From contig CAVYRF010000001.1 of the NCBI GenBank assembly GCA_963770895.1, positions 704,481 to 768,480 on the forward strand: DNA of 64,000 nucleotides, given 5' to 3'. The notes below the pieces were generated by a model. The model saw only the letters and a program-made list of their open reading frames with translations. It did not search any database and was not told the origin of the DNA. A program made the translations under genes and the position numbers. Numbering within the stretch: position 1 is the first letter of the stretch; each line of letters begins with the position of its first letter. This document shows, in pieces, positions 38,469 through 54,916 of the stretch. This stretch comes from an uncultured Acidobacteriota bacterium. GTDB lineage: Bacteria; Acidobacteriota; Thermoanaerobaculia; Multivoradales; UBA5704.

Positions 38469-39227
38469 ATGAAGACCGTGTCCCGCCTGCTGTCCGTCGC
38501 CGCCTACGGCCTGGTGCGACCGTGGATGCGGCGCCGGGTGGGCCGGACGGTGCTCGAATCGATCGATGGCGTGCCGCTGGTGGTGTTGCCCCAGGTGCTC
38601 AACCCGCGCGTCTTCCGCACCGGCGCCTGGCTGGCGCAGGCGGTGCCGCCGGCTGCCGCGCCGGCGGCCACCCGCCGCGCTCTCGACATGGGCACCGGCT
38701 CGGGCATCGGCGCCATCTTCGCCGCCCGCCGCGGCTATCGCGTGACGGCGCTCGACATCAATCCCCACGCCGTCCGGTGCGCTCGCGTGAACGCCCTGCT
38801 CAACGGCCTGGACCAGCAGATCGACGTGCGGCAGAGCGACCTGTTCGACGCCGTCGCCGGCGAACGCTTCGACCTGGTGCTGTTCAATCCGCCATTTTTC
38901 CCCGGCACGCCGCGCGATCCGCTGGACGCGGCCTGGCGCAGCCACGACGTCATCGAGCGCTTCACCGCCGGCCTGCCCGCGGCGCTGGCGCCGGGAGGGT
39001 CGGCCCTGCTGCTGCTGTCCAGCGCCGGCGGCTCCGACAGCAAGCTCCTGGCCCACGTCCCCGCCCAGCTGCGCGTCGCGCCGGTCTTCCGCCGCGGCTT
39101 TGCCGGCGAAACGATCACGCTCTTTGCCGCCACCTGGGTCCCCGCCGCCAGCGCCAGCGCGGCCCAGGCCGGCGCCGCCCGGCCGCTGGCGGCGCCCGCG
39201 CTGTCCTCCGTGGAGGTGATGCGATGA
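38469..39227 (+). CDS. HemK/PrmC-like (NPPF motif) SAM-dependent methyltransferase
   Basis: ATG 38469. Motif I is LDMGTGSGIGAIFAA and motif IV is LVLFNPPFFPG. Its stop overlaps the next start (ATGA at 39224). Confidence 0.75.
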   Translation: MKTVSRLLSVAAYGLVRPWMRRRVGRTVLESIDGVPLVVLPQVLNPRVFRTGAWLAQAVPPAAAPAATRRALDMGTGSGIGAIFAARRGYRVTALDINPHAVRCARVNALLNGLDQQIDVRQSDLFDAVAGERFDLVLFNPPFFPGTPRDPLDAAWRSHDVIERFTAGLPAALAPGGSALLLLSSAGGSDSKLLAHVPAQLRVAPVFRRGFAGETITLFAATWVPAASASAAQAGAARPLAAPALSSVEVMR

Positions 39228-40816
39228 GCGCCAGCGTTGCCTCGGCAGGCGTGTCGGGCGCGGCGGCGGGCCGCCAGCGGGTGCTGCTGGTCAATCCGCG
39301 CATGTGCTCGCGCCGCTCGATGCGCCTGCCGCTGTCGCTGCTGTCGCTGGGTTCGGTCCTGGAAGGGCGCTACGACTACCAGCTGATCGACGGCAATGTC
39401 GATCCCGACGCCATCGGCACCGCGCTCGCCGCGCTGGCGCAAGGCGACCATGCAATGGTGGGGGTGAGCGTCATGCCGGGGCCGCAGGTGGGGCCGGCGA
39501 TCGCGCTGTCCACCGCGGTGCGCGCGCACTTCCCGCAGGTGCCGATCGCCTGGGGCGGGTACTTCCCGACCCTCTACCCGGATTCGGCGATCAACGCTTC
39601 GTACGTCGACTACGTGGTGCGCGGCCAGGGCGAAGAAACCCTGCTGGAGCTGCTGGCGCGGCTGCCCGACGCCGGGCCGCCGGCGCCGCCATCCGACTCG
39701 GCTGCCGACGCCGGCGCCCTGGCCGGCCTGGCGGGCCTGACCTTCAAGCACGACGCCGAAGTGCGGCACAACGCCGACCGCCACTTCAAGCCGCCGGACG
39801 ACCTGCCGCCGCTGCCCTACCAGCGCCTGGCCGACGTCACGCCCTACCTGCGCCCGACGTTCATGGGGGCGCGCACCGGCGTGCACCAGGCGGCCCTGGG
39901 CTGCCGCTATCGCTGCAGCTTCTGCGGCGTCGTCACGATGTTCAACGGCGTCACCCGCCTGCAGGGAGCGTCGCGCCTGGCGCAGGCGGTGACGACGCTG
40001 CGCGACAAGTACGGCGCCGACTCGATGCAGTACTACGACAACAATTTCTTCGACCGCGAAGAGAGCAGCGTGCCGCTGCTCGAAGAGCTCGCCCGCCTGC
40101 AATCGCCCTGGTGGTGCTATGCGCGCGCCGACACCATGGCGGGCTTTTCGACCCGCACCTGGGAGCTCATCCGCCAGAGCCGCATGCGCATGGCCTACAT
40201 CGGCGCCGAAGCGGGGAGCGACGCGGCGCTGCGCCAGATGAAAAAGGGGTCGCGCGTCGAAGACACGTTGGAGGTCGCGCGCCTGTGCCGCGCCTACGGC
40301 GTGGTGCCCGAGCTGTCGTTCGTGCTCGGCGGCCCCGACGATCCCGAAGGCGAGGTCGAGCACACCCTGAGCTTCATCAAGCGCATCAAGCAGATCCACC
40401 CCACCTGCGAAGTCGTGCTGTACTTCTACAGCCCGACGCCGCGGCGGGAAGCCGCGTCAGAGGCGACGCGGGCCAGCGGCCTGCGCCTGCCGGTGATGGA
40501 CAACTACGGCCCGGACGGCCCGCCGCTGCCGACGACGCCGCTCGAATGGACCGAGCGCAAGTGGATCGACTACGTGTGCCACCAGGACGCGCCCTGGCTG
40601 TCGCCGCGCCTGCGCCGCCGCGTGCGCGACTTCGCGACCGTGCTCGGCTGCCGTTTCCCGACCGTGCAGGACGCCAAGACCCCGGACTGGGGCAAGGCGA
40701 TCCTGCGCAACCTGTCCCGCTGGCGCTACAGCAGCGGCCTCTACGGCAGCCCCTGGGAGCTGGAGCTGGCCCGGCGCCTGGTGCCCTTGCGCCAGCCGCA
40801 GCGCGAAAGCCTGTGA
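39224..40816 (+). CDS. class B (cobalamin-binding-domain type) radical SAM enzyme, copy 1
   Basis: 530 aa. An N-terminal alpha/beta domain (VLLVNP...PLSLLSLGS...) is followed by GCRYRCSFC (CxxxCxxC). It is a paralogue of the 46896..48320 gene, sharing N-terminal and C-terminal motifs. Confidence 0.88.
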   Translation: MSASVASAGVSGAAAGRQRVLLVNPRMCSRRSMRLPLSLLSLGSVLEGRYDYQLIDGNVDPDAIGTALAALAQGDHAMVGVSVMPGPQVGPAIALSTAVRAHFPQVPIAWGGYFPTLYPDSAINASYVDYVVRGQGEETLLELLARLPDAGPPAPPSDSAADAGALAGLAGLTFKHDAEVRHNADRHFKPPDDLPPLPYQRLADVTPYLRPTFMGARTGVHQAALGCRYRCSFCGVVTMFNGVTRLQGASRLAQAVTTLRDKYGADSMQYYDNNFFDREESSVPLLEELARLQSPWWCYARADTMAGFSTRTWELIRQSRMRMAYIGAEAGSDAALRQMKKGSRVEDTLEVARLCRAYGVVPELSFVLGGPDDPEGEVEHTLSFIKRIKQIHPTCEVVLYFYSPTPRREAASEATRASGLRLPVMDNYGPDGPPLPTTPLEWTERKWIDYVCHQDAPWLSPRLRRRVRDFATVLGCRFPTVQDAKTPDWGKAILRNLSRWRYSSGLYGSPWELELARRLVPLRQPQRESL

Positions 40817-42537
40817 CGGACACCCAGCCCGACAGGCTGCCGGCAGCGAAGCTGCCGCTGCGGCACGGCGCCTATGCGTGGCAGACGCGCTGGCGCCCCG
40901 GCGAGCTCGCCACCGCCCGCTTCATGCCCATGGGCCTCCACCTGGAGCTGGTCACCAACAGCCCGCCCCTCCTGGCTGCCGCCCGCCAGTGCTTCGGCGG
41001 CTACGGCGAGCCGGCGCCAGACCGCCCCGTCGATCTCACCCTGAGGCTCTACCAGCACTCCGTCGACGCGCCGGCGCCAGGCGCTGGCGTCGCTACGACC
41101 GCCGCTACGTCCGGCCACCTCGCCACGGCAACGGCCGCCGCCGCCAACCCGGCCGGCACCGCCGGCCTCCCCGACCTGGCCAACACCGCCAACCCCGCCG
41201 ACCAGGGGTTCAACGGGGGCAGCGTCGCGGCGATCCACCCAGTGAGGGCGGCTGCCCTCCCGGAGGCCGGGCCGCCCGGCGCCGCCACGTCCGGCAGCTG
41301 TGTCGCCGCAACCGCCGCCGGCGCCACCCCCGGCTCCGTCGCTGCAACCGCCATCCACGCCTCGACGACCGGCAACGCCGCTGCTGCAACCGCCATCGGC
41401 GCCGCCATGTCTGGCAGCTCTAGCGCAGCAACCGCTGCCGACGCTACGACCGGCAACTCCGCTGCTGCAGCCGCCATCGGCGCCGCCATGTCTGGCAGCT
41501 CTAGCGCAGCAACCGCTGCCGACGCTACGACCGGCAACTCCGCTGCTGCAGCCGCCATCGGCGCCGCCATGTCTGGCAGCTCCGTCGCCGCAACCGCTGC
41601 CGACGCTACGACCGGCAGCTCCAGTGCCGCAACCGCTGCCGACGCTACGACCGGCAGCTCTAGTGCAGCAACCGCTGGCGACGCCACGACCGGCAGCTCC
41701 GTCGCCGCCACCTCACCTGTCGCCGCGATGGCTGGTGCCGCCGCCGGCGGCCGGGACGTGCATTTCTTTGACGGCGGCGCCGCCGGCGCGCCGCTGTCCG
41801 CGCCGATCCTGCGCTGCGAGGGTCCGTATCTCTACCAGGCCAGCGGGTCTGACACGGTGATGGTGGCCGACCGCGGCGCCGGGGTCACCTTCGGCTACCT
41901 GGCCGCAGCGACCGTGGCCGATGCAGCGCACCTCACCTGGCACTACCTGTGGCCGGCGGTTTCCTATCACCTGGAATGCCGCGGTTTTGCCGGAGTGCAC
42001 GCCGCCGCCATCGCGCGGCGAGGCCGCGGGCTGCTGCTGCGCGGCCGCAGCGGCCAGGGCAAGACGACGCTCACCTATGCGGCCACCCGTCGCGGCTGGC
42101 AGGCCGTCAGCGAAGACATCGTATGGGTGGACGCCCGCGGCGCCACCTGGTGGGGCTCGCCCTGGACCTTCCACCTGCTGCCGGACGCCCGCCAGCTCTT
42201 TTCCGAGTTGAGCGGGCGCGGCGTCGCCCTGCAGCCCAACGGCGAAGTCAAAGTGGTGGTCGACATGGAATCCCTCTGGCCCGGCAGCACCCTGCCCAAG
42301 GCCGCGGCCGGCCCGGTGGTCATCCTGGAGCGCCGCCATGGCGGCACCAGCAGCCTGGTCACCCTCGACCCGGCCACAGCGCACCACGAATGGCTGGACG
42401 GCTGCGCCCGCCACGAGCGCCAGGCCCCCGGCTACGACCAGACGGTGGCGGACCTGCTCAGCAGAGGTTGCCACCGCCTCCACCTGGGAGACGACCTGGA
42501 CGGCGCCCTGGACCTGTTGGAGCCGCTCCTGCCATGA
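40813..42537 (+). CDS. HPr-kinase-related P-loop kinase with long internal low-complexity repeat region
   Basis: GTG 40813 overlaps the upstream stop (GTGA). The C-terminal domain is GFAGVHAAAIARRGRGLLLRGRSGQGKTTLTYAATRRGWQAVSEDIVWV, which matches the HprK C-terminal-like P-loop pattern. An Ala/Thr/Ser-rich stretch of about 190 aa separates the N- and C-terminal domains. Confidence 0.7.
   Translation: MTDTQPDRLPAAKLPLRHGAYAWQTRWRPGELATARFMPMGLHLELVTNSPPLLAAARQCFGGYGEPAPDRPVDLTLRLYQHSVDAPAPGAGVATTAATSGHLATATAAAANPAGTAGLPDLANTANPADQGFNGGSVAAIHPVRAAALPEAGPPGAATSGSCVAATAAGATPGSVAATAIHASTTGNAAAATAIGAAMSGSSSAATAADATTGNSAAAAAIGAAMSGSSSAATAADATTGNSAAAAAIGAAMSGSSVAATAADATTGSSSAATAADATTGSSSAATAGDATTGSSVAATSPVAAMAGAAAGGRDVHFFDGGAAGAPLSAPILRCEGPYLYQASGSDTVMVADRGAGVTFGYLAAATVADAAHLTWHYLWPAVSYHLECRGFAGVHAAAIARRGRGLLLRGRSGQGKTTLTYAATRRGWQAVSEDIVWVDARGATWWGSPWTFHLLPDARQLFSELSGRGVALQPNGEVKVVVDMESLWPGSTLPKAAAGPVVILERRHGGTSSLVTLDPATAHHEWLDGCARHERQAPGYDQTVADLLSRGCHRLHLGDDLDGALDLLEPLLP
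41380..41703 (+). repeat. in-frame tandem repeats (81 bp x about 2.6, then 36 bp x about 3) inside the kinase gene
   Basis: Units start at 41380, 41461 and 41542 (GCTGCTGCARCCGCCATCGGCGCCGCCATGTCTGGCAGCTC...). They encode AAATAIGAAMSGSSSAATAADATTGNS, followed by AATAADATTGSS repeats. Confidence 0.85.
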
Positions 42538-43721
42538 CGCTCGAAGCAATCGCGGACCAGGAGGCTACACCGCCTGCCGCCGCCGCCGCTGCCGGCGGGT
42601 CGCCTTCCGCCGCCGTCGCCGGTGGCGAGCCGCCACCCGGCGCTGCAGGAGACGCCGGGCGTCTGGCGTGGATGTGCGAGCGGCTGGCCGTTTGGGTGGT
42701 CGCCCCGCCGCCGCAGCCGCCGCCGGCGTGGCCGGCCGCGGCGTGGGAGGACTTTCGTGCCGCCACGCAGGTCCACGGCGTCGGCCCGCTGCTGGGGCGG
42801 CGCCTGGGCGACCGCCAGCCATGGTCGCAGGCGGCAGCCTGGCTTGGCGCCGAGCATGCCGCCAACCGCTTGCGCGTCGAGCGTCTGCACCAGGACTTGC
42901 GCGCGATCCTGGCGCGCTTTGCCGCCGCGGACGTGCCGCTCATGCCGCTCAAGGGCGCGGTGCTGGGGCCGCTCTATTATTCCGACCCCGCGGAGCGGCC
43001 AATGGCCGACCTGGACCTGCTGGTGCGCGCCGAAACGCTGGCGCAGAGCGCCCAGCTGCTGGTCGACATCGGCTATGAGGTGGTCTTTGAAGGCCGCAAA
43101 CACGTCAAGCTGGCGCCGCGCGGCGGCCGTCGCCGCCCGGTCAGCGACGCCGGCGGCGCCAGCGACGGCGACGTTGGCGCCGACGCCGGTGGTAGCCCCG
43201 GCCCCGGCCCCGGCGACCACGAGGCGGCCGGCGAGCACCCCGACAACCCGCGCTGGGTCGAGCTGCATCCGGCCTGCGGCGAATGGCTGGGGGACGAGCG
43301 CATCGATCTGACCGGCCCGATCTGGGCCGGCGCCCGCCGGCAGCCGCTGCTGGGCGAGCCGGCCTGGCTGCCCGACCCGGCGACCCATTGGCTCTACCTG
43401 TTGGTGCATGCCACCCACCACATCCTGATCAATCGCTTCCGTCTCATCCAGCTGCTCGACCTGCTGCTGCTTTGCCCGACGGACCTGTTGGGCGCCGCCC
43501 TCCAGGTCGAGCCGCCCGCCGCCGCGGCCGCCATGGCGCGCGCCCTGTACCCGCCTCTCGCGCTCCTCCAACGGTACTTCCCGGCGGGCGCCACCGCCGC
43601 CGCGACGGCCCTGCGCCAGGACTTGCGCGCGCGGCTGGCGCCCGGCTACGCGGCCTGGGCCGACGGCCTGGACCTGTTCCAGGCTTGCTATCTCGACGCC
43701 GCGCCGTGGAGGGCGCCATGA
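42534..43721 (+). CDS. uncharacterised nucleotidyltransferase family protein (PF14907-like)
   Basis: ATG 42534 overlaps the upstream stop (ATGA). VPLMPLKGAVLGPLYYSDPAERPMADLDLLVR and LYLLVHATHH resemble the NTP_transf_5 family signature as I remember it. Confidence 0.7.
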   Translation: MTLEAIADQEATPPAAAAAAGGSPSAAVAGGEPPPGAAGDAGRLAWMCERLAVWVVAPPPQPPPAWPAAAWEDFRAATQVHGVGPLLGRRLGDRQPWSQAAAWLGAEHAANRLRVERLHQDLRAILARFAAADVPLMPLKGAVLGPLYYSDPAERPMADLDLLVRAETLAQSAQLLVDIGYEVVFEGRKHVKLAPRGGRRRPVSDAGGASDGDVGADAGGSPGPGPGDHEAAGEHPDNPRWVELHPACGEWLGDERIDLTGPIWAGARRQPLLGEPAWLPDPATHWLYLLVHATHHILINRFRLIQLLDLLLLCPTDLLGAALQVEPPAAAAAMARALYPPLALLQRYFPAGATAAATALRQDLRARLAPGYAAWADGLDLFQACYLDAAPWRAP

Positions 43722-45283: not shown

Positions 45284-45589
45284 GTGGCGATTACGGTTGT
45301 CAATCAGTCGGTCGGTGCTCTGTCCTATACCGTGTTCGGCGGCTCGACTTCGGGTTCGGGCACGGGCGGGTCGGGCAGCAAGGGTTCGGGAACCACGGGC
45401 TCCGGTACCCACGGCTCGGGCGGCGGCTCGGGTGTCGTGGCTTCGGGCGTCGTCGGTCCGGGTGGCACCGCGTCCGGGATCCAGGTGGGTGCAGGCTCCT
45501 ATACCGTGGTCTTCGGGTGGAAAACCTTCCCCAGCTACACGGTTTCGGCCTCGGGTGTGGTCAAGGTGACGACGACCGTCCAGCCGTAG
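45284..45589 (+). CDS. 101-aa Gly/Ser/Thr-rich small protein (candidate modification substrate or scaffold)
   Basis: GTG 45284 lies 5 nt after GGAGG (45274-45278); an alternative TTG is at 45260. The sequence is VAITVVNQSVGALSYTVFGGSTSGSGTGGSGSKGSGTTGSGTHGSGGGSGVVASGVVGPGGTASGIQVGAGSYTVVFGWKTFPSYTVSASGVVKVTTTVQP. Codon third positions are less GC-biased than in the neighbours, and an AT-richer gap precedes it. Confidence 0.6.
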   Translation: MAITVVNQSVGALSYTVFGGSTSGSGTGGSGSKGSGTTGSGTHGSGGGSGVVASGVVGPGGTASGIQVGAGSYTVVFGWKTFPSYTVSASGVVKVTTTVQP

Positions 45590-45621
45590 CGCGTTCCGAA
45601 CGGTTGCCAGCGCGGCGCGGC

Positions 45622-46656
45622 GTGTCCAGACCTTCGCTGTTCGTCGTCTCGCTGCCGCGCTCTCTTTCGACGCTGCTCTACCACGCGATCCGCCAATCGC
45701 TGGCGTTGCGTGAGCCGCAGTGGACGACGGACGGGGAGATCCTCAACGTCCGTCGCTTTGCCTTTCTGGCGGAGGAGGGCGCGGTCGAGGGGGTGCGCTA
45801 CGTCCAGCGCGATCACGACGGGCCGCGCTTCGCGAAGCTCCTGGCCTTCCTCGACCAGGTGACCCAGGCTCAAGGCTTTGCCTACAAAGACGTCATCCAG
45901 CCCTTCGTCGTCGGCGAATGGCTGGCGCGCCAGAGCGCTCCGCCGGTGGGCGTGAACCGGCCCGCTGCAGCGGCCTCCTCCTCAGCCGCTGCCGAAGGCG
46001 CCACCGCCGCTGCGGCCGCCGCCGAGCGGCGCCGCTCGGCGTCATCGCCGAACAGCCCCGCACGCCCCACACCAGCGGCGCCAGCCCCCGCGGCCGTCTC
46101 TGCCTCCAGCGCTGCGGCACCCGCCCCGCGCGTCCTGGTCATCGACCGGCCGGTGCCTGACGTGGCCGCCTCGTTGCTCGATCGCGGCTGGCTGTATCCA
46201 GCGCTGGCCGCCGACGGCGCGGCGGCGCTTCCAGAGGCCGCGCGCGCGGTGGTCGCCGGTGCCCACACCGCCGACCTGTCGGCATTCCTCCCGCCCGACC
46301 AGGTGGAACGGGCGCTGGTGTCCGGCTTGCTGCGCGCCCGCCGGACCCTGGCCCGCCTGGCGGACCCGCCCCCGGCATGCGCCAGCCGGTGGGTGGTCTA
46401 CGACCAGCTGATCCACGACGAAGCGCCCTTGCATCAGGCCTTGCAGGCGCTCTACGGCGAAGACGTCCCGCCGCCCGCCTATCTGGACGACGAGTTCTGT
46501 CGCCAGCGCGATCAGGTGCTGCGCCGCCGCGCCAGCCCGCTCTACCAGCGCCTGCAGGCGCTCAGCGACGAGCTGGCGACCACGATGCTGGCCGCGCCGC
46601 CGGCCGCCGCCATCGGCGCCGGCGTCGCCGCGGCGCCACGGCGCCGCACGCAGTAG
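45622..46656 (+). CDS. sulfotransferase-like protein (tentative)
   Basis: GTG 45622 (or TTG 45604). The N-terminal FVVSLPRSLSTLLYH resembles the PAPS 5'-phosphosulfate-binding loop (LPRSGSTLL) of bacterial sulfotransferases, but with Gly replaced by Leu. An Ala/Ser/Pro low-complexity insertion lies at about 45960-46130. Confidence 0.45.
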   Translation: MSRPSLFVVSLPRSLSTLLYHAIRQSLALREPQWTTDGEILNVRRFAFLAEEGAVEGVRYVQRDHDGPRFAKLLAFLDQVTQAQGFAYKDVIQPFVVGEWLARQSAPPVGVNRPAAAASSSAAAEGATAAAAAAERRRSASSPNSPARPTPAAPAPAAVSASSAAAPAPRVLVIDRPVPDVAASLLDRGWLYPALAADGAAALPEAARAVVAGAHTADLSAFLPPDQVERALVSGLLRARRTLARLADPPPACASRWVVYDQLIHDEAPLHQALQALYGEDVPPPAYLDDEFCRQRDQVLRRRASPLYQRLQALSDELATTMLAAPPAAAIGAGVAAAPRRRTQ

Positions 46657-46895: not shown

Positions 46896-48320
46896 TCAGG
46901 ACAGGCGTTGTGCCGGGCGCAGGAAGTTGGCGACCTGCTTTTCGATCGGGGCGGCGTAAAAGTCGCGGTCGCAGCGCCAGCGGGCCAGCGCGCGCAGCGG
47001 CCGGCTCCAGGGTCGGCCGGAATCCCAGGCCAGCTGCTGGAAGAATTTGAAGCGCTCGATCAGCCGGTACTTTTCGGGCGACACCCACGGACCGATCGAG
47101 CCCACGAAGTCAAATTCGCTCCATTCGTCCAGCGTGCAGGGGAGGGTGAAGCCGGCGGCCACCGCGTTCTGGGTGATCGAGGTGCCGGGATAGGGTTTGA
47201 AATAGAAAATCGGCGTCTGGAAGTCGGGGCTCATGGCGCGCAGCCGCTTGACCACCTGCAGGGTGGCGCGCACGTTGTCCTCGGTCTCTTCCGGGAAGCC
47301 GACGATGAAGGGGAAGTTGACCGCCACGCCGAACTTGCGACAGCGCTCGGCGACAAAAAAGACCTGCTCCAGCTTGATGTCTTTTTTGATGCGATCCATC
47401 ATTTCCTGCGAGCCCGATTCGACGCCGACCAGCAGGCGGCGCAGCCCCGAGCGCTTGCACTTGGCGAAGACCTCTTCGCTCATGCGCTGGCCCTGGTCGG
47501 CGCGCATGGTGGCGGCCCAGGTGATGGGGAGCTTGCGGCGGATGAGCTCTTCGGCGACCGCTTCGACGCGCTGGGCGTAGGTGAAAAAGGTTTCGTCCTG
47601 GAAGTTCACGTCGTCGTAGCGCGAGCGGTGCCACAGCGCTTCGAGCTCTTCGCCCATGCGCTCGGGCGACAGGCCGGTCCACTTGCGCTGGTAGACGAAC
47701 GGATCGGCGCAAAAGGCGCAGCGGAAAGCGCACCCCTGCGACGAGATGTAATCCAGCTGGCGCTTGCCCTTGAGGCGATAGTACGGTTCGATGTCGATCA
47801 GGCCGTAGTTGTGGACCGCCAGGGTGTTGACGTCGGCCAGCGGGCGGGCCGTGTTCACCTGCGCGGCGCCGTCCTCGCGGTAGGTGCAACCCTGGCAGCC
47901 GGTCAGTGGCCGCCCTTCAGCCAGGCGCTCGACGATCTCGGCAAAGGTGATTTCCCCCTGGCCTTGCACGGTCACGTCGACGCTCGGTTCCGCCAGGCAT
48001 TCGCGGCCGAACATCGACGGGTGCCAGCCGCCCCAGACGACCGGCAGGTCGGCGCGGCTGGCCTTGGCGGCGCGGCTGGCCGCAACCGCGTCGGCGATCG
48101 GCGCCCCGGTGAGCACCGTGACGCCCAGGCAGAGCGCGCCTTCCAGCTCCGCCACCAGGGCGCGGTGTGCCGCTTCGGGGTTTTTGGCCAACCGGGCGTC
48201 CACGACCACCACCTGGTAGCGCTCGGGATCGAGGTGCGATCCGATGGTGAGCAGCGCCAGCGGCATGGTGTAAAAGACCGCGGTCGGGTTGTACAGCACG
48301 ATTTTGTGGCGGCGACTCAT
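46896..48320 (-). CDS. class B radical SAM enzyme, copy 2 (paralogue of 39224..40816)
   Basis: 474 aa from ATG 48320, overlapping the upstream stop (ATGA). Signature lines are IVLYNP...PLALLTIGS and GCAFRCAFC. Confidence 0.9.
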   Translation of the reverse strand: MSRRHKIVLYNPTAVFYTMPLALLTIGSHLDPERYQVVVVDARLAKNPEAAHRALVAELEGALCLGVTVLTGAPIADAVAASRAAKASRADLPVVWGGWHPSMFGRECLAEPSVDVTVQGQGEITFAEIVERLAEGRPLTGCQGCTYREDGAAQVNTARPLADVNTLAVHNYGLIDIEPYYRLKGKRQLDYISSQGCAFRCAFCADPFVYQRKWTGLSPERMGEELEALWHRSRYDDVNFQDETFFTYAQRVEAVAEELIRRKLPITWAATMRADQGQRMSEEVFAKCKRSGLRRLLVGVESGSQEMMDRIKKDIKLEQVFFVAERCRKFGVAVNFPFIVGFPEETEDNVRATLQVVKRLRAMSPDFQTPIFYFKPYPGTSITQNAVAAGFTLPCTLDEWSEFDFVGSIGPWVSPEKYRLIERFKFFQQLAWDSGRPWSRPLRALARWRCDRDFYAAPIEKQVANFLRPAQRLS

Positions 48321-49399
48321 AAGGGCTCCGGGGTCAATGCCAGCGTGCAGACGCATTTGCGACAGATCGCATCGCGGTCGGTGTCCAGGCCGCGGCGCCA
48401 GGCGAGCGCCTGCGGCGAATTGACGATCGCGTCCAGGCTTGCCGCCTGCCGCAGGTTGCCGAGCGGCGGCTGGAAGAAGCACGGCCGCACCGTGCCGTCG
48501 GCTTCGATCACCGTCGACACCCACGGCGCGTTGCAGCGATGCGGCGGAAAATCGCCGTGGCCGCACAGTGCGGCGTAGTAGTCGTAGAGCCGCGCCCGCA
48601 GCTTCGCCGCGCCCTCGACGATGAAGCCGGATGCGAAGTCGGCCGCGTGCTCGCGTTCCAGGGCGTCCAGCTCGCCGGCCAGCCGCGGCAGCTCCTCTTC
48701 GAGCAGCGCCACCTGGCCGGCGCGCGCCGCTTCCCAGGGCTGCGGCCGGTTGAAGGCGTCGCTGCTGACGTCGGCGGCCAGCAGGCTCAACCAGTTCAGG
48801 CCGATCGCGCGGGCCGCCGTGACGGTGCCGCGCAGGTGGGCGAAGTTGGCCCGCTGGACGGTGCAGCGCCCGCCGATCGTCAGCTGAGGCGCGGCTTGGC
48901 GCACCGCCGCCACCCCGTCGGCCAGCTTGGCGAAAGCGCGCGGCAGGTTGCGGATGTGATCGTGCACGGGCTGCGGCCCGTCCAGGCTGACGATCACTTC
49001 GGAGCAGTAGGCGGCGACCTGGGTCGCGTCGCGCCGCAGCAGCAGACCGGTGGACAGCAGGGTGATCGCGATGCCGGCGCGCCGCAGGTGCTCGCACATC
49101 TCCCACAGGTTGCGGTGCAGCAGCGCTTCGCCGCCCGACAGCGCGACCTGGCGCACCCCCATGCGCTGCCATTCGGCAACCCACTGTGCCACCTCGGCCG
49201 CGCCCAGCTCCTGCTTGCCCGGATCGCGCCAGATGTCGCACATCAGGCAGCGGCAGTTGCAGCGGCTGTGCGGGAACAGGATGACGATCGGCAGCCGCTC
49301 GACCGGTTGGGGCCGCGGCAACCCGTCGGCCGCCCCGCCGCTCCACGCGTTGGCCGGCAGCTCGGCGGCCGGCAGCACCGGAAGCACGGTCGAGCTCAC
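48317..49399 (-). CDS. radical SAM enzyme with Cys-rich SPASM/twitch-like C-terminal domain
   Basis: 360 aa from GTG 49399, overlapping the upstream stop (GTGA). It has RCNCRCLMCDIW (CxxxCxxC). The C-terminus has CNAPW...CFF...ICRKCVC. Confidence 0.85.
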   Translation of the reverse strand: MSSTVLPVLPAAELPANAWSGGAADGLPRPQPVERLPIVILFPHSRCNCRCLMCDIWRDPGKQELGAAEVAQWVAEWQRMGVRQVALSGGEALLHRNLWEMCEHLRRAGIAITLLSTGLLLRRDATQVAAYCSEVIVSLDGPQPVHDHIRNLPRAFAKLADGVAAVRQAAPQLTIGGRCTVQRANFAHLRGTVTAARAIGLNWLSLLAADVSSDAFNRPQPWEAARAGQVALLEEELPRLAGELDALEREHAADFASGFIVEGAAKLRARLYDYYAALCGHGDFPPHRCNAPWVSTVIEADGTVRPCFFQPPLGNLRQAASLDAIVNSPQALAWRRGLDTDRDAICRKCVCTLALTPEPL

Positions 49400-50385
49400 C
49401 GCCGCTCCAACTCCAGCAGGTAATGGTCGGCCAGCCAGGGCAGCGGCGGCCAGGTTTCGGCACGCCGCTCCCAGCGCCCGAGCAGACGCAGCAGGCGCGG
49501 GTGGCGCGCCGCCCAGCCTTCGGCGTAGGTGGGCGGCAGCAGCGCGCCGACCGCCGCGCGCCGGCGCAGGCGGAAGGCGGGACCGAACAGGCGCCGCAGC
49601 GCGCCGACCGACGGATAGCGGATGGTCAGGCCGCGCCAGCGCGTGCCGCCCGGCCGCAGCCGGCGAAAGGCGCGCCCCGGCTGCGCGTGGCCCAGGTACC
49701 AGGCCCACTCCCACGGCACCAGCGGGCCCATCACGCAAACGACCGCCATGGCGCCCGGCCGCAGGTTTGCCGCCAGCCAGCCCGCCAGCTGCCGCAGGTC
49801 GGCTGGCGCCACGCAGTTGAGGCCGCCGAAGTTGGACAGCACCCCGTCGAACGGCCGCGGCGCCGCCGGTGTGGCGCCGGCAGCAGGTGCGGCAGCGGGT
49901 ACAGGCGCGGTGGCGAGTACAGACGCGACCGCGGGCATAGGCGCAGCGGCGGGTACAGACGCGGGCGCGGGTGCCGGGTCCGCCGGCGGTGATTGCTGGG
50001 GGTGCCAGGGTTGCCGGGGCTGCCGGGTCAGCTGTTCGATGGTCTGGTGGCGCAGATCGACCCGATCGCCCAGGCCGGCGCTCGCGATCTTGTCGCCGGC
50101 GCGTTCCAGCATGCCGGCGGCGGCGTCGATGGCGGTGACGCGCACGCCGCGGCGAGCCAGGTACAGGGCGTCTTCGCCGGTGCCGCAGTTGAGCTCCAGC
50201 ACGTGGCTGCCGGGGGCGAAGCAGGCGTCCAGCCGCCGCCAGACCGCCTGGCGCATCTGCGTGCCGATGGCGCTGCCGGTGAAGCTGGCGTCGTAGGACG
50301 CGGCCATGCGGTCGAACGCGGTGGCACCCGTGGCGTCGCCATCGCGGCGCGCCGGCAGCACGGGGAGGACGGCCGGTTCGGTCAT
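49396..50385 (-). CDS. class I SAM-dependent methyltransferase (paralogue of 16980..17810)
   Basis: 329 aa from ATG 50385. Motif I is VLELNCGTGEDALYLA. There is a Pro/Ala-rich insertion at about 49850-50000, and the gene ends LELERR. Confidence 0.8.
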   Translation of the reverse strand: MTEPAVLPVLPARRDGDATGATAFDRMAASYDASFTGSAIGTQMRQAVWRRLDACFAPGSHVLELNCGTGEDALYLARRGVRVTAIDAAAGMLERAGDKIASAGLGDRVDLRHQTIEQLTRQPRQPWHPQQSPPADPAPAPASVPAAAPMPAVASVLATAPVPAAAPAAGATPAAPRPFDGVLSNFGGLNCVAPADLRQLAGWLAANLRPGAMAVVCVMGPLVPWEWAWYLGHAQPGRAFRRLRPGGTRWRGLTIRYPSVGALRRLFGPAFRLRRRAAVGALLPPTYAEGWAARHPRLLRLLGRWERRAETWPPLPWLADHYLLELERR

Positions 50386-50387
50386 CG

Positions 50388-51785
50388 TCACGGCGCCGCC
50401 GGCGACTCCTCGGGCCAGGAGAGCAGCGCCTGGTGCGCCGCTTCCGCCATCTGCAGCTTTTCGGCGGCGTCCGCCGGGTTGTCGGACTGCAGGCGGGCGG
50501 CGGCGACGCTGTTGCGCAGCCACCGGTCGGCCTGTTCGTAGTAGGCGCGCGAGCGCTGGCCGCGCAGCCGGTAGTCGCGGTCGGTGGCGGTATCCCAGCT
50601 CTTGTCGAGCTGCACGCGGTCGGCCACCTGGCGGAAGTAGGCGGTGTTCTTGATCGGGTAGGCGACGGTGGTGAAGAAGATGTTGGGGTTGGCCTTTTTG
50701 ACGTGCTCGACGGTGGCTTCGATGTCGGCCAGCGTTTCGCCCTGGTAGCCCCACATCAGGAACATGCCGACTTCGATGCCGTGGCGCTGGGCGGCGTGGG
50801 TCGCCCACTGCACCTGCTCGGCGGTGACGCCCCGATCCATGGCGTCCAGGATGCGCTGGCTGCCGCTTTCAGAGCCGATCCAGATGCGGTAGCAGCCCAT
50901 TTCGGCGAGCGTCGCGATCACTTCGTCCTTGAGCAGCCGATCGGCGCGCGAAATGGTTTCGAAAGGGCGCACCAAGCCGCGCTTCTTGAGCAGGCCGGCG
51001 AACTCGAAGAGCCAGCGGTGGTGGATGGTGAACACGTCGTCGGCGTACCACAGCTGTTCGGGCTGGTAGGCTTCGACGATGTGCGCCACTTCGTCGGCGC
51101 AGTCGAGCGCGCTGCGCCGGCGATGGGTGTAGCCGAACACGGCGTGCGAGCACCATTTGCAGCGATACGGGCAGCCGCGCGCGGTGATCAGGTTGACGCT
51201 GCCCATGCCGTGGTGGGTGTGCCAAACGTCGACGTAGCGGGCGATGTCGATCTGCTCGCGATCGGGCCAGGGGAGGCTGTCCAGGTCGGCGATCTGTTCG
51301 CGGTCCGGATTGGTGACGACCTCCCCTTCTTCGTCGCGGAAGACCGTGCCGTGCAGGCCGTGCAGACGGTGCGGACCGCGCAGGGCGAGCGCCGGCAGCA
51401 GTTCCGCGAGCGTCGCTTCGCCTTCGCCCACCACCACGACGTCGGCGCCGTGGGCCAGGTATTCGGCCGGGTAGTTGGCCGATTCGGGGCCGCCGAGCAC
51501 CACCGTCCAGCCGTGCTGCCGCGCGGCGGCGATGATGGCGAGGATCGACGCGCGGGTCATCAGGTTGGTGTAGATCCCCACCACGCCGCCGGGAGTGGCG
51601 GCAAGGCGCTGGCGCAGCGCGGCGCGCTCGGCGAACGTGGAATCGAAGATCTCGACGCTGAAACCGGCGCGACGCAGATACGAAGAGATGTAGAGCAGCC
51701 CCAGCGTCGGGTAGGGCTTCATGATCTGCAGCTCTTTGGGATCTTCGTGCAGGAAGTAGCCGTGGGTCAGCAGGATGTCGGCCAT
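50388..51785 (-). CDS. class B radical SAM enzyme, copy 3
   Basis: 465-aa ORF. Signature lines are MADILLTHGYFLHEDPKELQIMKPYPTLGLLYISSYL and GCPYRCKWC. It is a paralogue of the upstream gene. Confidence 0.9.
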   Translation of the reverse strand: MADILLTHGYFLHEDPKELQIMKPYPTLGLLYISSYLRRAGFSVEIFDSTFAERAALRQRLAATPGGVVGIYTNLMTRASILAIIAAARQHGWTVVLGGPESANYPAEYLAHGADVVVVGEGEATLAELLPALALRGPHRLHGLHGTVFRDEEGEVVTNPDREQIADLDSLPWPDREQIDIARYVDVWHTHHGMGSVNLITARGCPYRCKWCSHAVFGYTHRRRSALDCADEVAHIVEAYQPEQLWYADDVFTIHHRWLFEFAGLLKKRGLVRPFETISRADRLLKDEVIATLAEMGCYRIWIGSESGSQRILDAMDRGVTAEQVQWATHAAQRHGIEVGMFLMWGYQGETLADIEATVEHVKKANPNIFFTTVAYPIKNTAYFRQVADRVQLDKSWDTATDRDYRLRGQRSRAYYEQADRWLRNSVAAARLQSDNPADAAEKLQMAEAAHQALLSWPEESPAAP

Positions 51786-51786
51786 A

Positions 51787-53653: not shown

Positions 53654-54916
53654 TCAGGGTGAAGGCGGCGTGCCGGCGGCGGCGCTCAGCGGCAGAAAGC
53701 GCGGCTCCGACACGACGCCCTTGTCGACGTTGCGCAGCACCAGCCCGGAGCCGCCGGCGGTGGCGGCACAGCCGGACAGCAAGACCCAGCTGTCCGCGGC
53801 CGGCACCAGCACCTGCGTCACCGGCAGGCGCTCGCCGTTTTTCGACACCACGTCGGCAGGCGCCTGGGCGACCTGCGCCCACGCGCCGTGCGGGTTCAGG
53901 CGTGTCAACACCACCTGTTCGGCGGCCGGCGAGCGGCGGTCGTACCACACCATCTGCAGGGCCCCGCGGCGATCGGCAAGCGGCAGGTCGATGCCGTACT
54001 CGGTGCCCTGCCGCCACATGCCGGTGGTGTCGCCGCCGCCCCACGGCGTCCAGGCGGAGCGCCGCCAGCTCTTGCCCAGGTCGGACGACAGGTAAGCCAC
54101 GCCGTCGGCCGAGATGTACGCGGCGTCGTTGCCGCCCAGGGCCAGGATCTGGCCGCGCCGGTCTGCTGTCACGCCCGGCAGCCCCTTGACCCAGGTTTCG
54201 GGCGGCGCGCCGGCGCTGAACAGGCCGGTGCCCGAGACCACGCCGTCCGCCTGCTGCGGCGCCGGCGTCACCTGCGGCTGGCCGACCGCCGTCACCTCCA
54301 GGCCGCCGTGCGATTTCCACTCGCGCCCTTCCAGGCGGTAGGCCCACGCCTGGTAGAGGCCCGGCTTGGTGCCCGCGGCATGCGCCATCAGCCACGGGGC
54401 GCCGCCCTCGTCATAGGTGCCGGCCAGGGTGGCCCCCGCCGGCAGGGTCACCGCTTCGCCGAGCGGCTGCCAGCCGCCGTGGTCCCAGCGCACCGGCTGC
54501 ACGCATTGCGCGCCGCAGGGCTCGACCGCGACCACCGGCCCCGGCCCGATCGAGCCGCCGTAGCGGCCGGAGGGGCGCTCGGGAAACGCTCGCGCTTCGT
54601 GCCCGCTGCCGTCCAGCTGCACCGTCCAGCCGCCGCTGCCGCCGCTGTCGCCGTTGTCGTCGGTCAGCGAGAACAGCATCAGGCCCGAGCGGGTGTCCAT
54701 GCCGATCAGCGTCAACGCCGACGCGGCGTCGCACGCCGGTCCGCCGCCCGCGGCATTGCCGGCGCGCCCTTGCACACGCTCGGGGGGCGGCGCCGCTGCC
54801 AGGCGGGGCGCGCCGGCCAGCAGCGCGGTCATCGCGACGATCAGCAGCGCCGCCGGGGCAGTGGTGAAGAGCGCCGCGGTAGCGGCGGGGCGTGAGATCG
54901 CGGCGCTTCGTTTCAT
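53654..54916 (-). CDS. secreted BNR/Asp-box (sialidase-like beta-propeller) protein
   Basis: 420 aa from ATG 54916, overlapping the upstream stop (ATGA). The signal-like N-terminus is MKRSAAISRPAATAALFTTAPAALLIVAMTALLAGA. It has an Asp-box-like SSDLGKSW. Confidence 0.6.
   Translation of the reverse strand: MKRSAAISRPAATAALFTTAPAALLIVAMTALLAGAPRLAAAPPPERVQGRAGNAAGGGPACDAASALTLIGMDTRSGLMLFSLTDDNGDSGGSGGWTVQLDGSGHEARAFPERPSGRYGGSIGPGPVVAVEPCGAQCVQPVRWDHGGWQPLGEAVTLPAGATLAGTYDEGGAPWLMAHAAGTKPGLYQAWAYRLEGREWKSHGGLEVTAVGQPQVTPAPQQADGVVSGTGLFSAGAPPETWVKGLPGVTADRRGQILALGGNDAAYISADGVAYLSSDLGKSWRRSAWTPWGGGDTTGMWRQGTEYGIDLPLADRRGALQMVWYDRRSPAAEQVVLTRLNPHGAWAQVAQAPADVVSKNGERLPVTQVLVPAADSWVLLSGCAATAGGSGLVLRNVDKGVVSEPRFLPLSAAAGTPPSP

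What the first reader, a model, noticed from the sequence alone, without database searches (positions are those of the whole stretch)
40813..43721. HprK-like kinase plus PF14907-like nucleotidyltransferase pair without the usual lasso or PqqD partners
Seen: the two genes are translationally coupled (ATGA at 42534). The kinase P-loop GRSGQGKTT lies at about 42043-42069. The nucleotidyltransferase has PLKGAVLGPLYYSDPAERPMADLDLLV. Established: this pairing is known from lasso-peptide-type loci, where the HprK homologue phosphorylates a precursor Ser. It is also known from HprK-related/PqqD-related gene sets of unknown function. Inference: no PqqD-like recognition domain, cyclase or leader protease is recognisable anywhere in the 64 kb. 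Substrate recognition must therefore work differently, possibly through the kinase N-terminal domain of about 170 aa.
Basis: partly seen in the sequence, partly recalled or inferred. Interest (0 to 1): 0.55.

Follow-up and report, generated by a model that had tools for sequence, protein, structure and literature searches.

The report
Glycan-linked kinase–nucleotidyltransferase gene pair
The kinase and nucleotidyltransferase genes are real and truly lack peptide-recognition (PqqD) or lasso partners, but that is normal for their large, unstudied, sugar-pathway-associated family, and here they sit in a conserved seven-gene cassette with a small glycine/serine-repeat protein that may be their target.

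Summary
An HprK/PEPCK-fold kinase (40813-42537) and a PF14907 nucleotidyltransferase (42534-43721) overlap by ATGA. The P-loop and NTase motif lie exactly where stated. No PqqD/RRE, lasso cyclase or leader protease was detected in 41 called genes or in the cluster gaps.

- The extra N-terminal length is a recent, disordered tandem-repeat insert of 233 aa. An 88%-identical homologue lacks it, so it is not a recognition domain.
- The pair is not an orphan. It belongs to a cassette conserved in 9 Acidobacteriota loci: methyltransferase, B12-radical-SAM, kinase, NTase, GT4, a 101-aa Gly/Ser-repeat protein and a sulfotransferase-fold protein.
- The pair alone recurs in 12 further loci (11 Chloroflexota, 1 Thermoanaerobaculia).
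- The kinase belongs to a large unnamed clade (397 clusters at E<=1e-30). It is distinct from HprK-related A/B and ScmC.
- All five wider-clade contexts sampled are glycan-type (Wzy, flippase, GT2/GT4, PMT, sugar ABC transporter). None has PqqD.

The best mechanism, by analogy with lasso PsmK/PsmN, is phosphorylation of a hydroxyl followed by NTase-dependent decoration of the phosphate and extension by the glycosyltransferase. The acceptor is unproven. It may be the small repeat protein or a glycan. I rate this a new variant of a known kind, of moderate interest.

The parts
38469..39227 (+). A: HemK/MTS-type class I methyltransferase, first gene of the cassette
   Evidence: Pfam MTS E=5e-16. 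NCBIfam HemK2/MTQ2-like hit is below cut-off. Conserved upstream of the B12-rSAM gene in locus groups 1 and 3.
39224..40816 (+). B: B12-binding radical SAM enzyme; its start overlaps the stop of A
   Evidence: Pfam B12-binding + Radical_SAM. No NCBIfam equivalog reached. 63-80% identical in related loci. Gene call identical to the source record.
40813..42537 (+). C: HprK/PEPCK-fold P-loop kinase, 574 aa
   Evidence: GTGA overlap with B. Invariant H396, K417, T419 and D435 in 30 homologues. Foldseek hits PEPCK E 7e-9 and HprK/P E 1e-6. NCBIfam HprK_rel_B 30.8, HprK_rel_A 29.2 and ScmC 20.7 bits, all far below cut-offs.
41086..41784 (+). Lineage-specific low-complexity insert inside the kinase (aa 92-324; 79% A/T/S/G/P), containing an 81-bp x 4.2 in-frame tandem repeat
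   Evidence: TRF: 41365-41701, period 81, 89% matches. pLDDT <50 over 92-172 and 174-324. Absent from P0002, which is 88% identical and 376 aa, and from most homologues.
42043..42069 (+). Kinase Walker-A / P-loop GRSGQGKTT
   Evidence: Coordinates verified. Aligns to the HprK P-loop in 3tqf.
42534..43721 (+). D: PF14907 (NTP_transf_5) Pol-beta-type nucleotidyltransferase, 395 aa
   Evidence: ATGA overlap with C. Pfam E=8e-31, near full length. K140, G141, R155, D159, D161 and H190 are invariant in 18 loci.
43008..43016 (+). NTase catalytic D159-L-D161 motif
   Evidence: Invariant in 18 of 18 loci. The analogous D134/D136 pair is essential in PsmN (PMC6993621).
43718..45148 (+). E: GT4-family glycosyltransferase with an N-terminal GAVSEP x 9 repeat
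   Evidence: ATGA overlap with D. Pfam Glyco_trans_1_4 / Glycos_transf_1. 18-bp x 9.3 repeat at 43711-43877. Orthologue follows the NTase in all 9 group-1 loci.
45284..45589 (+). F: 101-aa Gly/Ser-repeat small protein, the candidate acceptor
   Evidence: GGAGG Shine-Dalgarno sequence 6 nt before the GTG start. Same call in the source record. 37 homologous clusters of 82-101 aa with 62% mean column identity. Always directly after the GT4 gene. The central 54 aa are 76% G/S/T, with 12 Ser and 6 Thr. No Pfam or PDB relative.
45622..46656 (+). G: divergent sulfotransferase-fold protein with an internal A/P/S-rich insert
46896..48320 (-). H: second B12-binding radical SAM enzyme (accessory block)
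   Evidence: Pfam. Conserved in L001, L005 and L019 but absent from L033 and L034.
48317..49426 (-). I: radical SAM / SPASM enzyme (accessory block); the start is approximate
   Evidence: Pfam Radical_SAM + SPASM. ScmE reaches only 57 bits against a cut-off of 400.
49396..50391 (-). J: class I methyltransferase (accessory block)
   Evidence: Pfam Methyltransf_25/11.
50388..51785 (-). K: third B12-binding radical SAM enzyme (accessory block)
   Evidence: Pfam. NCBIfam hits all below cut-off.
51787..53367 (-). L: fourth B12-binding radical SAM enzyme (accessory block)
   Evidence: Pfam. NCBIfam hits all below cut-off.
54913..61063 (-). Adjacent polysaccharide-type genes: hexapeptide O-acetyltransferase, polysaccharide deacetylase, GT4, Polysacc_synt_3 flippase and GT2
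   Evidence: Pfam. EpsC-like hit of 130 bits against a cut-off of 150. Not seen in the visible flanks of related loci, but the same gene types flank wider-clade kinases.

Best explanation
The two genes form a conserved two-enzyme module that works in a glycoconjugate pathway. They are not a lasso/RiPP tailoring pair that has lost its partners.

Shown:
- C is an intact ATP-type P-loop kinase of the HprK/PEPCK fold.
- D is an intact Pol-beta-type nucleotidyltransferase of family PF14907.
- They are translationally coupled and co-inherited across Acidobacteriota and Chloroflexota.
- In this lineage they sit in a fixed cassette: methyltransferase, B12-rSAM, kinase, NTase, GT4, small Gly/Ser-repeat protein F, sulfotransferase-fold protein G.

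Inferred, by analogy with the only characterised pair of this type (PsmK/PsmN of pseudomycoidin):
- The kinase puts a phosphate on a hydroxyl group of the acceptor.
- The NTase uses a nucleotide-activated donor to convert that phosphomonoester into a phosphodiester-linked sugar or nucleotidyl substituent.
- The co-encoded GT4 extends it.
- G and the methyltransferase and radical SAM enzymes add sulfate and methyl decorations.

In this cassette the most likely acceptor is the Ser/Thr-rich central loop of F. This is inference from strict gene adjacency only. No RRE is needed. Kinases of this type already work without one in lasso systems, and F is a small protein conserved along its whole length rather than a leader-core peptide.
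For: - Catalytic intactness. P-loop K417/T419, H396 and D435 are invariant in 30 kinase homologues. They align to the HprK H...GxGKS...DD motifs. The PEPCK/HprK fold is supported by Foldseek. NTase K140, G141, D159 and D161 are invariant in 18 loci.
- Coupling. GTGA/ATGA overlaps link the adjacent pairs B-C, C-D and D-E.
- Co-inheritance. Kinase and NTase co-occur in 9 of 9 group-1 loci and 12 of 13 group-2 loci. They are adjacent in 3 of 5 wider-clade loci.
- Cassette order. The order is identical in the window, L001, L004, L005, L012, L017, L019, L033 and L034.
- Glycan theme in every locus type. GT4 lies next to the pair in groups 1 and 2. GT-A-like fusions occur in group 3. Wzy_C, flippase, Wzz, Bac_transf, PMT, GT2 and a sugar ABC transporter occur in the wider clade. 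A flippase, GT2, GT4, deacetylase and acetyltransferase lie in the window.
- Precedent. PsmK phosphorylates Ser. PsmN is required for one or two hexoses on the phosphate, and its DxD mutant is dead (PMC6993621). Sulfotransferase genes accompany such pairs in Firmicutes (PMC8498205). G has a sulfotransferase fold.
- F as acceptor. It has a strong Shine-Dalgarno sequence. It is always next to the GT4 gene. The motif FGGS(A/T)SGSG is invariant and is followed by a variable number of GSG-type repeats.
Against: - There is no biochemical evidence for any step.
- F has no homologue in the Chloroflexota or wider-clade loci that still carry the pair. So F cannot be the universal acceptor.
- In those loci the neighbours are polysaccharide genes, which fits a glycan or lipid-linked acceptor at least as well.
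- F has no signal peptide and no C-terminal Ser, the site used by lasso kinases.
- PsmN's chemistry is itself only inferred from in vivo mass shifts.
- Group-3 loci keep the kinase with the methyltransferase and B12-rSAM genes but have no NTase. So the kinase can work without it.
- The wider-clade sample is only five contexts.
Confidence: 0.45

Rival explanations
1. The pair acts on a carbohydrate: a nucleotide-sugar, a lipid-linked oligosaccharide or a growing polysaccharide. It installs phosphodiester-linked substituents on a cell-surface glycan. The whole 38-61 kb island then makes a methylated, sulfated and phosphorylated polysaccharide. F is a regulator, chaperone or primer rather than the acceptor.
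For: - Glycan genes are the only partners shared by all locus types.
- The window carries a flippase, GT2, GT4, deacetylase and O-acetyltransferase just downstream.
- The Chloroflexota and wider-clade loci lack F and any peptide-like gene.
- The closest structural match of the kinase is PEPCK, a small-molecule kinase.
- The rSAM enzymes give weak hits to sugar-modifying families such as BlsE and AprD4.
Against: - The characterised sequence relatives (HprK, lasso kinases) phosphorylate protein or peptide Ser.
- F is strictly retained between the GT4 and sulfotransferase-like genes in all 9 cassettes.
- The best structural matches of G include tyrosyl-protein sulfotransferases.
- The window's flippase/GT2 block is not seen next to the cassette in related loci.
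Confidence: 0.3
2. The cassette is a conventional RiPP pathway. F is a precursor peptide: N-terminal MAITIVNQSVG..YTIFGG acts as a leader with a Gly-Gly cleavage site. A cryptic RRE is hidden inside one of the enzymes. The kinase and NTase are tailoring enzymes as in lasso clusters. The four B12-rSAM enzymes and the SPASM enzyme are the class-defining maturases.
For: - Five radical SAM enzymes and two methyltransferases surround a small ORF. This recalls proteusin-type clusters.
- The B12-rSAMs give partial hits to RiPP C-methyltransferase models (rSAM_ocin_1, ApyD), all below cut-off.
- RREs are often too divergent for PF05402.
- L001 has an extra 54-aa Cys-rich, leader-like ORF upstream of the methyltransferase.
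Against: - No PqqD/RRE hit at E<=10 in any cluster protein or gap.
- No peptidase or peptide exporter is present in the cassette or the window.
- F is conserved along its whole length, including both termini. It has no helical leader-like segment.
- The H-L radical SAM block is dispensable: it is absent from L033 and L034.
- The 54-aa ORF of L001 is absent from the window.
- The wider kinase clade never shows peptide genes.
Confidence: 0.12
3. The HprK-like protein is a regulatory kinase/phosphorylase, or a pseudo-enzyme, that controls polysaccharide or transporter activity, as HprK/P controls carbon metabolism. It is not a biosynthetic enzyme. The NTase would be a nucleotide-signalling or toxin-antitoxin-type partner.
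For: - HprK/P itself is regulatory.
- One wider-clade pair sits behind a sugar-type ABC transporter and next to a GntR regulator.
- Polysaccharide loci commonly use P-loop kinases such as Wzc for control. This point rests on my own knowledge.
Against: - No HPr-like gene was found in the window.
- The kinase is translationally coupled inside a biosynthetic operon, between an rSAM enzyme and an NTase/GT4.
- The only tested NTase of this family acts biosynthetically.
- The catalytic residues are invariant, so it is not a pseudo-enzyme.
Confidence: 0.08

Closest known systems
PsmK/PsmN of the pseudomycoidin lasso peptide cluster, and PadeK of paeninodin
   Same: An HprK-homologous P-loop kinase is paired with an 'uncharacterised nucleotidyltransferase' that has an essential DxD motif. 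The kinase makes phospho-Ser and the NTase is required for hexose(s) on the phosphate. Sulfotransferase genes can accompany such pairs.
   Different: There is no lasso cyclase, no B1 (PqqD), no B2 protease and no ABC exporter here. The candidate acceptor is a 101-aa protein with internal Ser-Gly repeats and no C-terminal Ser. A dedicated GT4 is present. The phyla differ (Acidobacteriota and Chloroflexota rather than Firmicutes). Direct sequence comparison with PsmK or PadeK could not be run, because no reference sequence was available.
HprK-related kinase A / B systems (NCBIfam TIGR04352, TIGR04355; the A system is paired with a PqqD-family protein)
   Same: HprK-like P-loop core. PF14907 genes and unknown function. 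That PqqD is the defining partner of the A system is from my own knowledge.
   Different: The window kinase scores 29.2 and 30.8 bits against cut-offs of 200, and only over about 50 residues around the P-loop. Ten wider-clade members also fail, at 70 bits or less. No PqqD was found.
SynChlorMet cassette protein ScmC (TIGR04249 / Pfam PF27840)
   Same: The precomputed Pfam label for the homologues is PF27840 'ScmC' (weak). The HprK-like P-loop is shared. Radical SAM/SPASM genes lie nearby.
   Different: TIGR04249 gives 20.7 bits against a cut-off of 125. The SPASM enzyme I scores 57 bits against 400 for ScmE and 44 against 400 for ScmF. No PqqD homologue is present. PF27840 is not in the local Pfam copy, so no score could be computed here.
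HPr kinase/phosphorylase (HprK/P) and ATP-dependent PEP carboxykinase
   Same: The fold matches (Foldseek E 1e-6 and 7e-9). The H...GxxGxGK[ST]...[DE]D motif arrangement is shared.
   Different: The Pfam hit is below the gathering cut-off and covers only about 50 residues. No HPr gene is present. The N-terminal lobe and the genomic context differ.
Eukaryotic O-mannose glycan pathway (POMT, then POMK kinase, then fukutin/FKRP NTase-fold phosphotransferases, then glycosyltransferases), and Ser-Gly-repeat proteoglycan cores such as serglycin. This is an analogy only, from my own knowledge.
   Same: The logic is a kinase, then an NTase-fold phosphodiester-forming transferase, then glycosyltransferases acting on a glycan or Ser-rich acceptor. 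PMT-family GT-C genes flank some clade members.
   Different: No homology was tested or claimed. The resemblance is purely conceptual.

Membership tests
PF14907 NTP_transf_5 (uncharacterised nucleotidyltransferase) | Pfam profile match above the gathering score over the full domain | tested here: met
   107.9 bits against a cut-off of 31.2, E=8e-31, profile positions 2-248 of 249.
PF14907 NTP_transf_5 (uncharacterised nucleotidyltransferase) | Pol-beta-type catalytic motif hG[GS]...DxD | tested here: met
   K140-G141 and D159-L-D161 are invariant in 18 of 18 loci. The equivalent D134/D136 pair is essential in PsmN.
HPr kinase/phosphorylase (PF07475, TIGR00679) | Profile match above the curated cut-off | tested here: not met
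   PF07475 gives 18.5-19.4 bits against 33.3, over aa 395-445 only. TIGR00679 was not reported for the window protein.
HPr kinase/phosphorylase (PF07475, TIGR00679) | PEPCK-like fold with Walker A and the catalytic acidic residue | tested here: met
   Foldseek: PEPCK E 7e-9, HprK/P E 1e-6. H396, K417, T419 and D435 are invariant.
HPr kinase/phosphorylase (PF07475, TIGR00679) | An HPr/Crh substrate gene in the genome or operon | tested here: not met
   No HPr-like family was found among 41 window proteins. The rest of the genome was not available.
HprK-related kinase A system (TIGR04352 plus a PqqD-family partner) | TIGR04352 score at or above 200 | tested here: not met
   29.2 bits.
HprK-related kinase A system (TIGR04352 plus a PqqD-family partner) | Adjacent PqqD-family protein | tested here: not met
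   No PF05402 hit at E<=10 in 11 proteins of the 38.4-55.4 kb stretch (C, D, F, G, H-L and the two downstream genes), nor in the gap ORFs. A, B and E were scanned at E<=0.01. The other window proteins were scanned at E<=1e-3.
HprK-related kinase B (TIGR04355) | TIGR04355 score at or above 200 | tested here: not met
   30.8 bits.
SynChlorMet cassette (ScmC with ScmE/ScmF and a PqqD homologue) | ScmC model at or above its cut-off | tested here: not met
   TIGR04249 gives 20.7 bits against 125. The PF27840 label is only 'weak' or 'faint' in precomputed data.
SynChlorMet cassette (ScmC with ScmE/ScmF and a PqqD homologue) | Two cassette-specific radical SAM/SPASM proteins | tested here: not met
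   There is only one SPASM protein. It scores 57 bits for ScmE and 44 for ScmF, against cut-offs of 400.
Lasso peptide cluster with kinase/NTase tailoring | Lasso cyclase (Asn-synthase-like C protein), B1 RRE and B2 transglutaminase-type protease | tested here: not met
   None of these families was found in 41 window proteins.
Lasso peptide cluster with kinase/NTase tailoring | Short precursor ending in Ser (the kinase target) | tested here: not met
   The only conserved small ORF, F, ends in QP, KP, QT or KK in 29 homologues.
Lasso peptide cluster with kinase/NTase tailoring | Kinase orthologous to PadeK/PsmK | not testable with these tools
   No reference sequences of PadeK or PsmK could be retrieved.
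RiPP pathway (generic) | Leader-core precursor, RRE or other leader-binding element, leader peptidase or exporter | tested here: inconclusive
   A conserved small ORF exists (F), but it is conserved end to end. No RRE, peptidase or exporter was detected by profile search. Structure-based RRE detection was not run.
Sulfotransferase fold (for neighbour G) | Structural similarity to PAPS-dependent sulfotransferases | tested here: met
Sulfotransferase fold (for neighbour G) | Pfam Sulfotransfer_1/3 profile match and canonical PAPS-binding motifs | tested here: not met
   Only 1 of 29 homologues gives a hit, at E=0.014. The loop reads LPRSLSS rather than PRSGS/T. P0107 carries a separate genuine Sulfotransfer_3 domain fused to a G-like part.

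The most novel reading that the evidence does not exclude
The seven-gene cassette builds a bacterial 'proteoglycan-like' conjugate. The 101-aa cytoplasmic protein F serves as a ribosomally made scaffold. Its invariant FGGSxSGSG motif and variable GSG repeats are serially Ser-phosphorylated by the HprK-fold kinase. They are then phospho-glycosylated by the PF14907 enzyme, extended by the GT4, and sulfated and methylated. This would be an RRE-independent, leaderless, protein-templated phosphoglycan not described in any RiPP or glycoprotein class. It would also give the first function to a clade of several hundred HprK-like kinases.
Probability: 0.15. Interest if true: 0.8.

Novelty: new variant of a known kind. 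Interest (0 to 1): 0.5.

Why it matters
HprK-type kinase plus PF14907 nucleotidyltransferase pairs have been studied only as lasso-peptide tailoring enzymes. The chemistry of the PF14907 partner (hexose on a phosphate) is still known only from in vivo mass shifts.

This locus shows the same pair in a different setting:
- It belongs to a large, unnamed kinase clade: 397 clusters at 50% identity with E<=1e-30.
- The neighbours in that clade are glycan-pathway genes.
- The pair operates without PqqD, cyclase or protease.
- In one lineage it is locked to a GT4, a sulfotransferase-fold protein and a small Ser-Gly-repeat protein.

If the proposed mechanism holds, phospho-glycosylation by this enzyme pair is a general bacterial glycoconjugate reaction rather than a lasso curiosity. 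The cassette also offers a compact, testable system for working it out: three enzymes plus a 101-aa candidate acceptor. If the acceptor is instead a polysaccharide, the result still assigns a pathway context to two large families of unknown function.

Tried and rejected
1. **Kinase N-terminal '170-aa domain' as recognition module: rejected.** Residues 92-324 are a disordered tandem-repeat insert, absent from an 88%-identical homologue.
2. **Cryptic PqqD/RRE: not found.**
   - Pfam at E<=10 on 11 proteins of the 38.4-55.4 kb stretch and on the gap ORFs gave nothing.
   - Pfam at E<=1e-3 on the other window proteins gave nothing. A, B and E were scanned at E<=0.01.
   - A masked six-frame translation of 38200-47000 was prepared but not submitted.
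3. **L001's 54-aa Cys-rich leader-like ORF as the precursor: rejected for the window.** There is no counterpart upstream of gene A.
4. **Link to the DtxR/Nramp/Usp genes upstream: rejected.** It is shared only with the close relative L001.
5. **Link to the 4114-aa NRPS: rejected.** It is not present in L001 or any related locus.
6. **Membership in HprK-related A/B, ScmC or true HprK: rejected** on curated cut-offs.
7. **Annotated plasmid relatives of the NTase: uninformative.** The one weak partial hit, in a Deinococcus megaplasmid, told nothing.
8. **Promoter and terminator scan of 38200-47000: nothing above the shuffled expectation**.
9. **AFDB50 fold search: unavailable**.
10. **Literature: nothing on this cassette.** 'SynChlorMet' gave 0 papers. 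PF14907 gave one passing mention in phosphonate clusters. All papers linking HPr kinase to RiPPs concern lasso peptides.
11. **F against Pfam and PDB: only low-complexity noise**.

Full report
**1. What is at the coordinates**

The window is about 73% G+C, so raw ORF lists are uninformative. Codon-position GC and a codon-usage gene caller give a + strand operon whose adjacent genes A-B, B-C, C-D and D-E each overlap start on stop:
- A 38469-39227
- B 39224-40816
- C 40813-42537
- D 42534-43721
- E 43718-45148
- then F 45284-45589 and G 45622-46656

The overlaps GTGA at 40813, ATGA at 42534 and ATGA at 43718 were read directly. The products of B to G are identical to genes called in the public source record.

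The P-loop GRSGQGKTT is at nt 42043-42069. The NTase motif is at 42945-43025.

**2. The two proteins**

D is a clear PF14907 member (E=8e-31, near full length). It has no NCBIfam name. Its K-G...R-P-M-A-D-L-D motif is invariant in 18 related loci.

C matches Hpr_kinase_C and the NCBIfam models HprK-related A, HprK-related B and ScmC only over about 50 residues around the P-loop. All scores are far below the curated cut-offs.
- An alignment of 30 homologues (A1) shows invariant H396, K417, T419 and D435.
- These align to the H...GxGKS...DD motifs of a solved HprK.
- The AlphaFold model is confident (pLDDT >90) for residues 25-88 and 325-574.
- It matches ATP-dependent PEP carboxykinases (E 7e-9) and HprK/P (E 1e-6).

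So C is an intact kinase of the HprK/PEPCK fold, but not a member of any named HprK-like family.

**3. The 'N-terminal domain'**

The P-loop begins at residue 411, not about 170. Residues 92-324 are 79% Ala/Thr/Ser/Gly/Pro.
- They contain an in-frame 81-bp x 4.2 tandem repeat.
- They are disordered in the model.
- They are missing from most homologues, which are 300-400 aa. This includes P0002, which is 88% identical and 376 aa long.

This is a recent, dispensable insertion at a variable linker. The real pre-P-loop lobe is about 65 + 65 residues and is conserved across the whole clade.

Similar low-complexity repeats decorate the NTase, the GT4 (GAVSEP x 9), G and other genes of this genome.

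**4. Search for PqqD, cyclase and protease**

Pfam scans were run at three stringencies:
- 11 proteins of the 38.4-55.4 kb stretch (C, D, F, G, H-L and the two downstream genes) at E<=10;
- A, B and E at E<=0.01;
- the other window proteins at E<=1e-3.

None gave PqqD, an Asn-synthase-type cyclase, a transglutaminase-type protease, a peptidase or a peptide exporter.

The cassette is tightly packed. ORFs in its few gaps give no Pfam hit at E<=10. A very divergent RRE fused to an enzyme cannot be excluded without structure-based tools.

**5. Conserved context**

*Group 1, nine loci.* These are the window, L001, L004, L005, L012, L017, L019, L033 and L034. Those with an organism label are Acidobacteriota, mostly Thermoanaerobaculia MAGs. 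All carry the same order:
- methyltransferase, B12-rSAM, kinase, NTase, GT4, F, G.
- A reverse block of three more B12-rSAM enzymes, one SPASM rSAM and a methyltransferase (H to L, 46896-53367) is present in the window, L001, L005 and L019.
- That block is absent from L033 and L034, so it is accessory.

*Group 2, 12 loci.* Eleven are Chloroflexota and one (L006) is labelled Thermoanaerobaculia. They keep only kinase plus NTase. These are adjacent, or separated by one or two unrelated genes. A different GT4, GT-C/PMT-like membrane proteins or a flippase are often next to them.

*Group 3, Holophagales and other Acidobacteriota.* These keep the kinase with the methyltransferase and B12-rSAM genes but lack the NTase. 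Instead they carry a roughly 95-aa 'GGxF' repeat domain, free or fused to GT-A-like proteins.

**6. The small protein F and protein G**

F (101 aa) has a GGAGG Shine-Dalgarno sequence.
- It has 37 homologous clusters of 82-101 aa with 62% mean column identity.
- N7-Q8-S9 is invariant.
- An FGGS(A/T)SGSG motif is invariant and is followed by a variable number of GSG-type repeats.
- The C-terminal YTVVFGW..P.Y.VSASG is conserved.
- The central 54 residues are 76% Gly/Ser/Thr.
- It has no relative in Pfam or the PDB.
- It occurs only in group 1, always between the GT4 and G.

**7. The wider kinase clade**

A full-library profile search with A1 found 397 representatives at E<=1e-30 and 2,244 at E<=1e-10. 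Most are full-length matches. Ten sampled members all fail the HprK-related A/B and ScmC cut-offs.

The five contexts that could be read are all glycan-type:
- flippase, Wzy_C, GT4, GT2 and YfhO;
- Wzy_C, NTP_transf_5, Bac_transf and Wzz;
- sugar-type ABC transporter, kinase, NTP_transf_5 and GntR;
- GT4, kinase, an NTP_transf_5-MFS fusion, GT4 and two Wzy_C genes;
- PIG-L, kinase, PMT_2, PMT, GT2 and an epimerase.

None has PqqD or peptide genes.

The window itself has a hexapeptide O-acetyltransferase, a polysaccharide deacetylase, a GT4, a flippase and a GT2 at 54.9-61.1 kb.

So absence of PqqD and lasso partners is the rule for this clade, not an anomaly.

**8. Mechanism**

The only experimentally studied pair of this kind is PsmK/PsmN.
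- The kinase phosphorylates a Ser.
- The NTase, through its DxD motif, is required for one or two hexoses on the phosphate (PMC6993621).
[quoted passage not shown] The RRE serves the protease (PMC8498205). Lack of an RRE therefore does not by itself call for a new recognition mode.

By analogy I propose three steps: phosphorylation of an acceptor hydroxyl by C, conversion to a phosphodiester-linked substituent by D, and extension by the GT4. G and the methylating enzymes add further decoration.

What is shown: catalytic intactness, coupling, co-inheritance and the glycan context. The chemistry and the acceptor are inferred.

F is the best candidate acceptor in this cassette, from its adjacency and Ser-rich repeats. 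It cannot be the acceptor in loci that lack it. A glycan acceptor is a serious rival.

**9. Comparison and novelty**

The system works like the PsmK/PsmN tailoring pair. It is not a lasso system, not an HprK-related A/B system, and not a SynChlorMet cassette. Defining features of each were tested and not met.

No paper in the searchable library describes this cassette or clade.

I rate it a new variant of a known kind and moderately interesting. The most novel reading still open is a protein-templated phosphoglycan built on F.

Noticed in passing
window 41283-41712, 43711-43877, 55577-55769, 25972-26106, 56977-57134: In-frame tandem repeats and low-complexity Ala/Pro/Ser/Thr/Gly inserts occur in many coding genes of this genome. 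They are seen in the kinase, at the GT4 N-terminus (GAVSEP x 9), in the NRPS and in a second GT4. A 21-bp x 9.2 array probably encodes an AVEPAPx N-terminal extension of the acetyltransferase at 54913-55422. An 88%-identical homologue of the kinase lacks the insert, so these repeats expand quickly.
   Followed up: partly
window 46680-46856: A non-coding 48-bp x 3.8 tandem repeat (90% matches) fills the gap between the convergent genes G and H.
   Followed up: no
L001 7517-7681: A 54-aa ORF lies directly upstream of the cassette methyltransferase. It has a classic leader-like N-terminus and a Cys-rich tail (MRKSVKKLVLHRESLRLL...AAAGG NYTAPLSCETICGLICPQPQRTQDC). It looks like a radical-SAM/SPASM peptide precursor but has no counterpart in the window.
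   Followed up: partly
L003 11033-11335; L020-L027; L021 7978-9180: Group-3 loci carry a conserved domain of about 95 aa made of GGxF(W/R) pentad-like repeats immediately after the kinase. The same domain is fused to the N- or C-terminus of GT-A-like proteins of about 300 aa with a DxD motif. Its function is unknown.
   Followed up: partly
L013 5697-6257, L014 5748-6308, L016 4808-5299, L018 3876-4463: Chloroflexota loci share a 165-196 aa ORF 4-5 kb upstream of the kinase. It has one transmembrane helix, a Thr/Pro-rich mucin-like stretch and a Gly/Asp/His-rich tail. It could be a glycosylation target.
   Followed up: no
window 1268-5892: KaiB (3767-4108) and KaiC (4105-5892) homologues sit next to a PAS/GAF hybrid histidine kinase (1268-3724). 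This is a circadian-clock-like module in a non-cyanobacterial genome.
   Followed up: no
window 22104-34448: A single 4114-aa NRPS has four condensation domains, three adenylation domains, four carrier domains and a thioesterase. It is not present in the syntenic relative L001.
   Followed up: no
window 5910-13359 and 19222-20052: A second glycan-type island carries a GT9, two PhyH dioxygenases and an FkbM-methyltransferase/GT4 fusion. Separately there is a PEP-mutase-family gene. One paper notes PF14907 genes next to PEP mutase in phosphonate clusters (PMC8942020). Here the two are 22 kb apart.
   Followed up: no
P0210, P0215, P0219, P0230, P0239-P0241 and others; L038 7001-9088: Some wider-clade members are about 690 aa, and the family profile matches them in two separate stretches. 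They look like tandem duplications of the whole kinase module. The one whose context was read (P0210, L038) is followed by a PF14907 gene.
   Followed up: partly
L041 8013-10463: A PF14907 nucleotidyltransferase is fused to an MFS transporter (816 aa), next to a clade kinase and two Wzy_C genes. This suggests the NTase product or substrate crosses the membrane.
   Followed up: no
L033 10999-13518; L034 10996-13649: In two cassette loci, a TonB-dependent receptor and a DedA/VTT membrane protein directly follow the sulfotransferase-like gene. This hints at envelope trafficking of the product.
   Followed up: no
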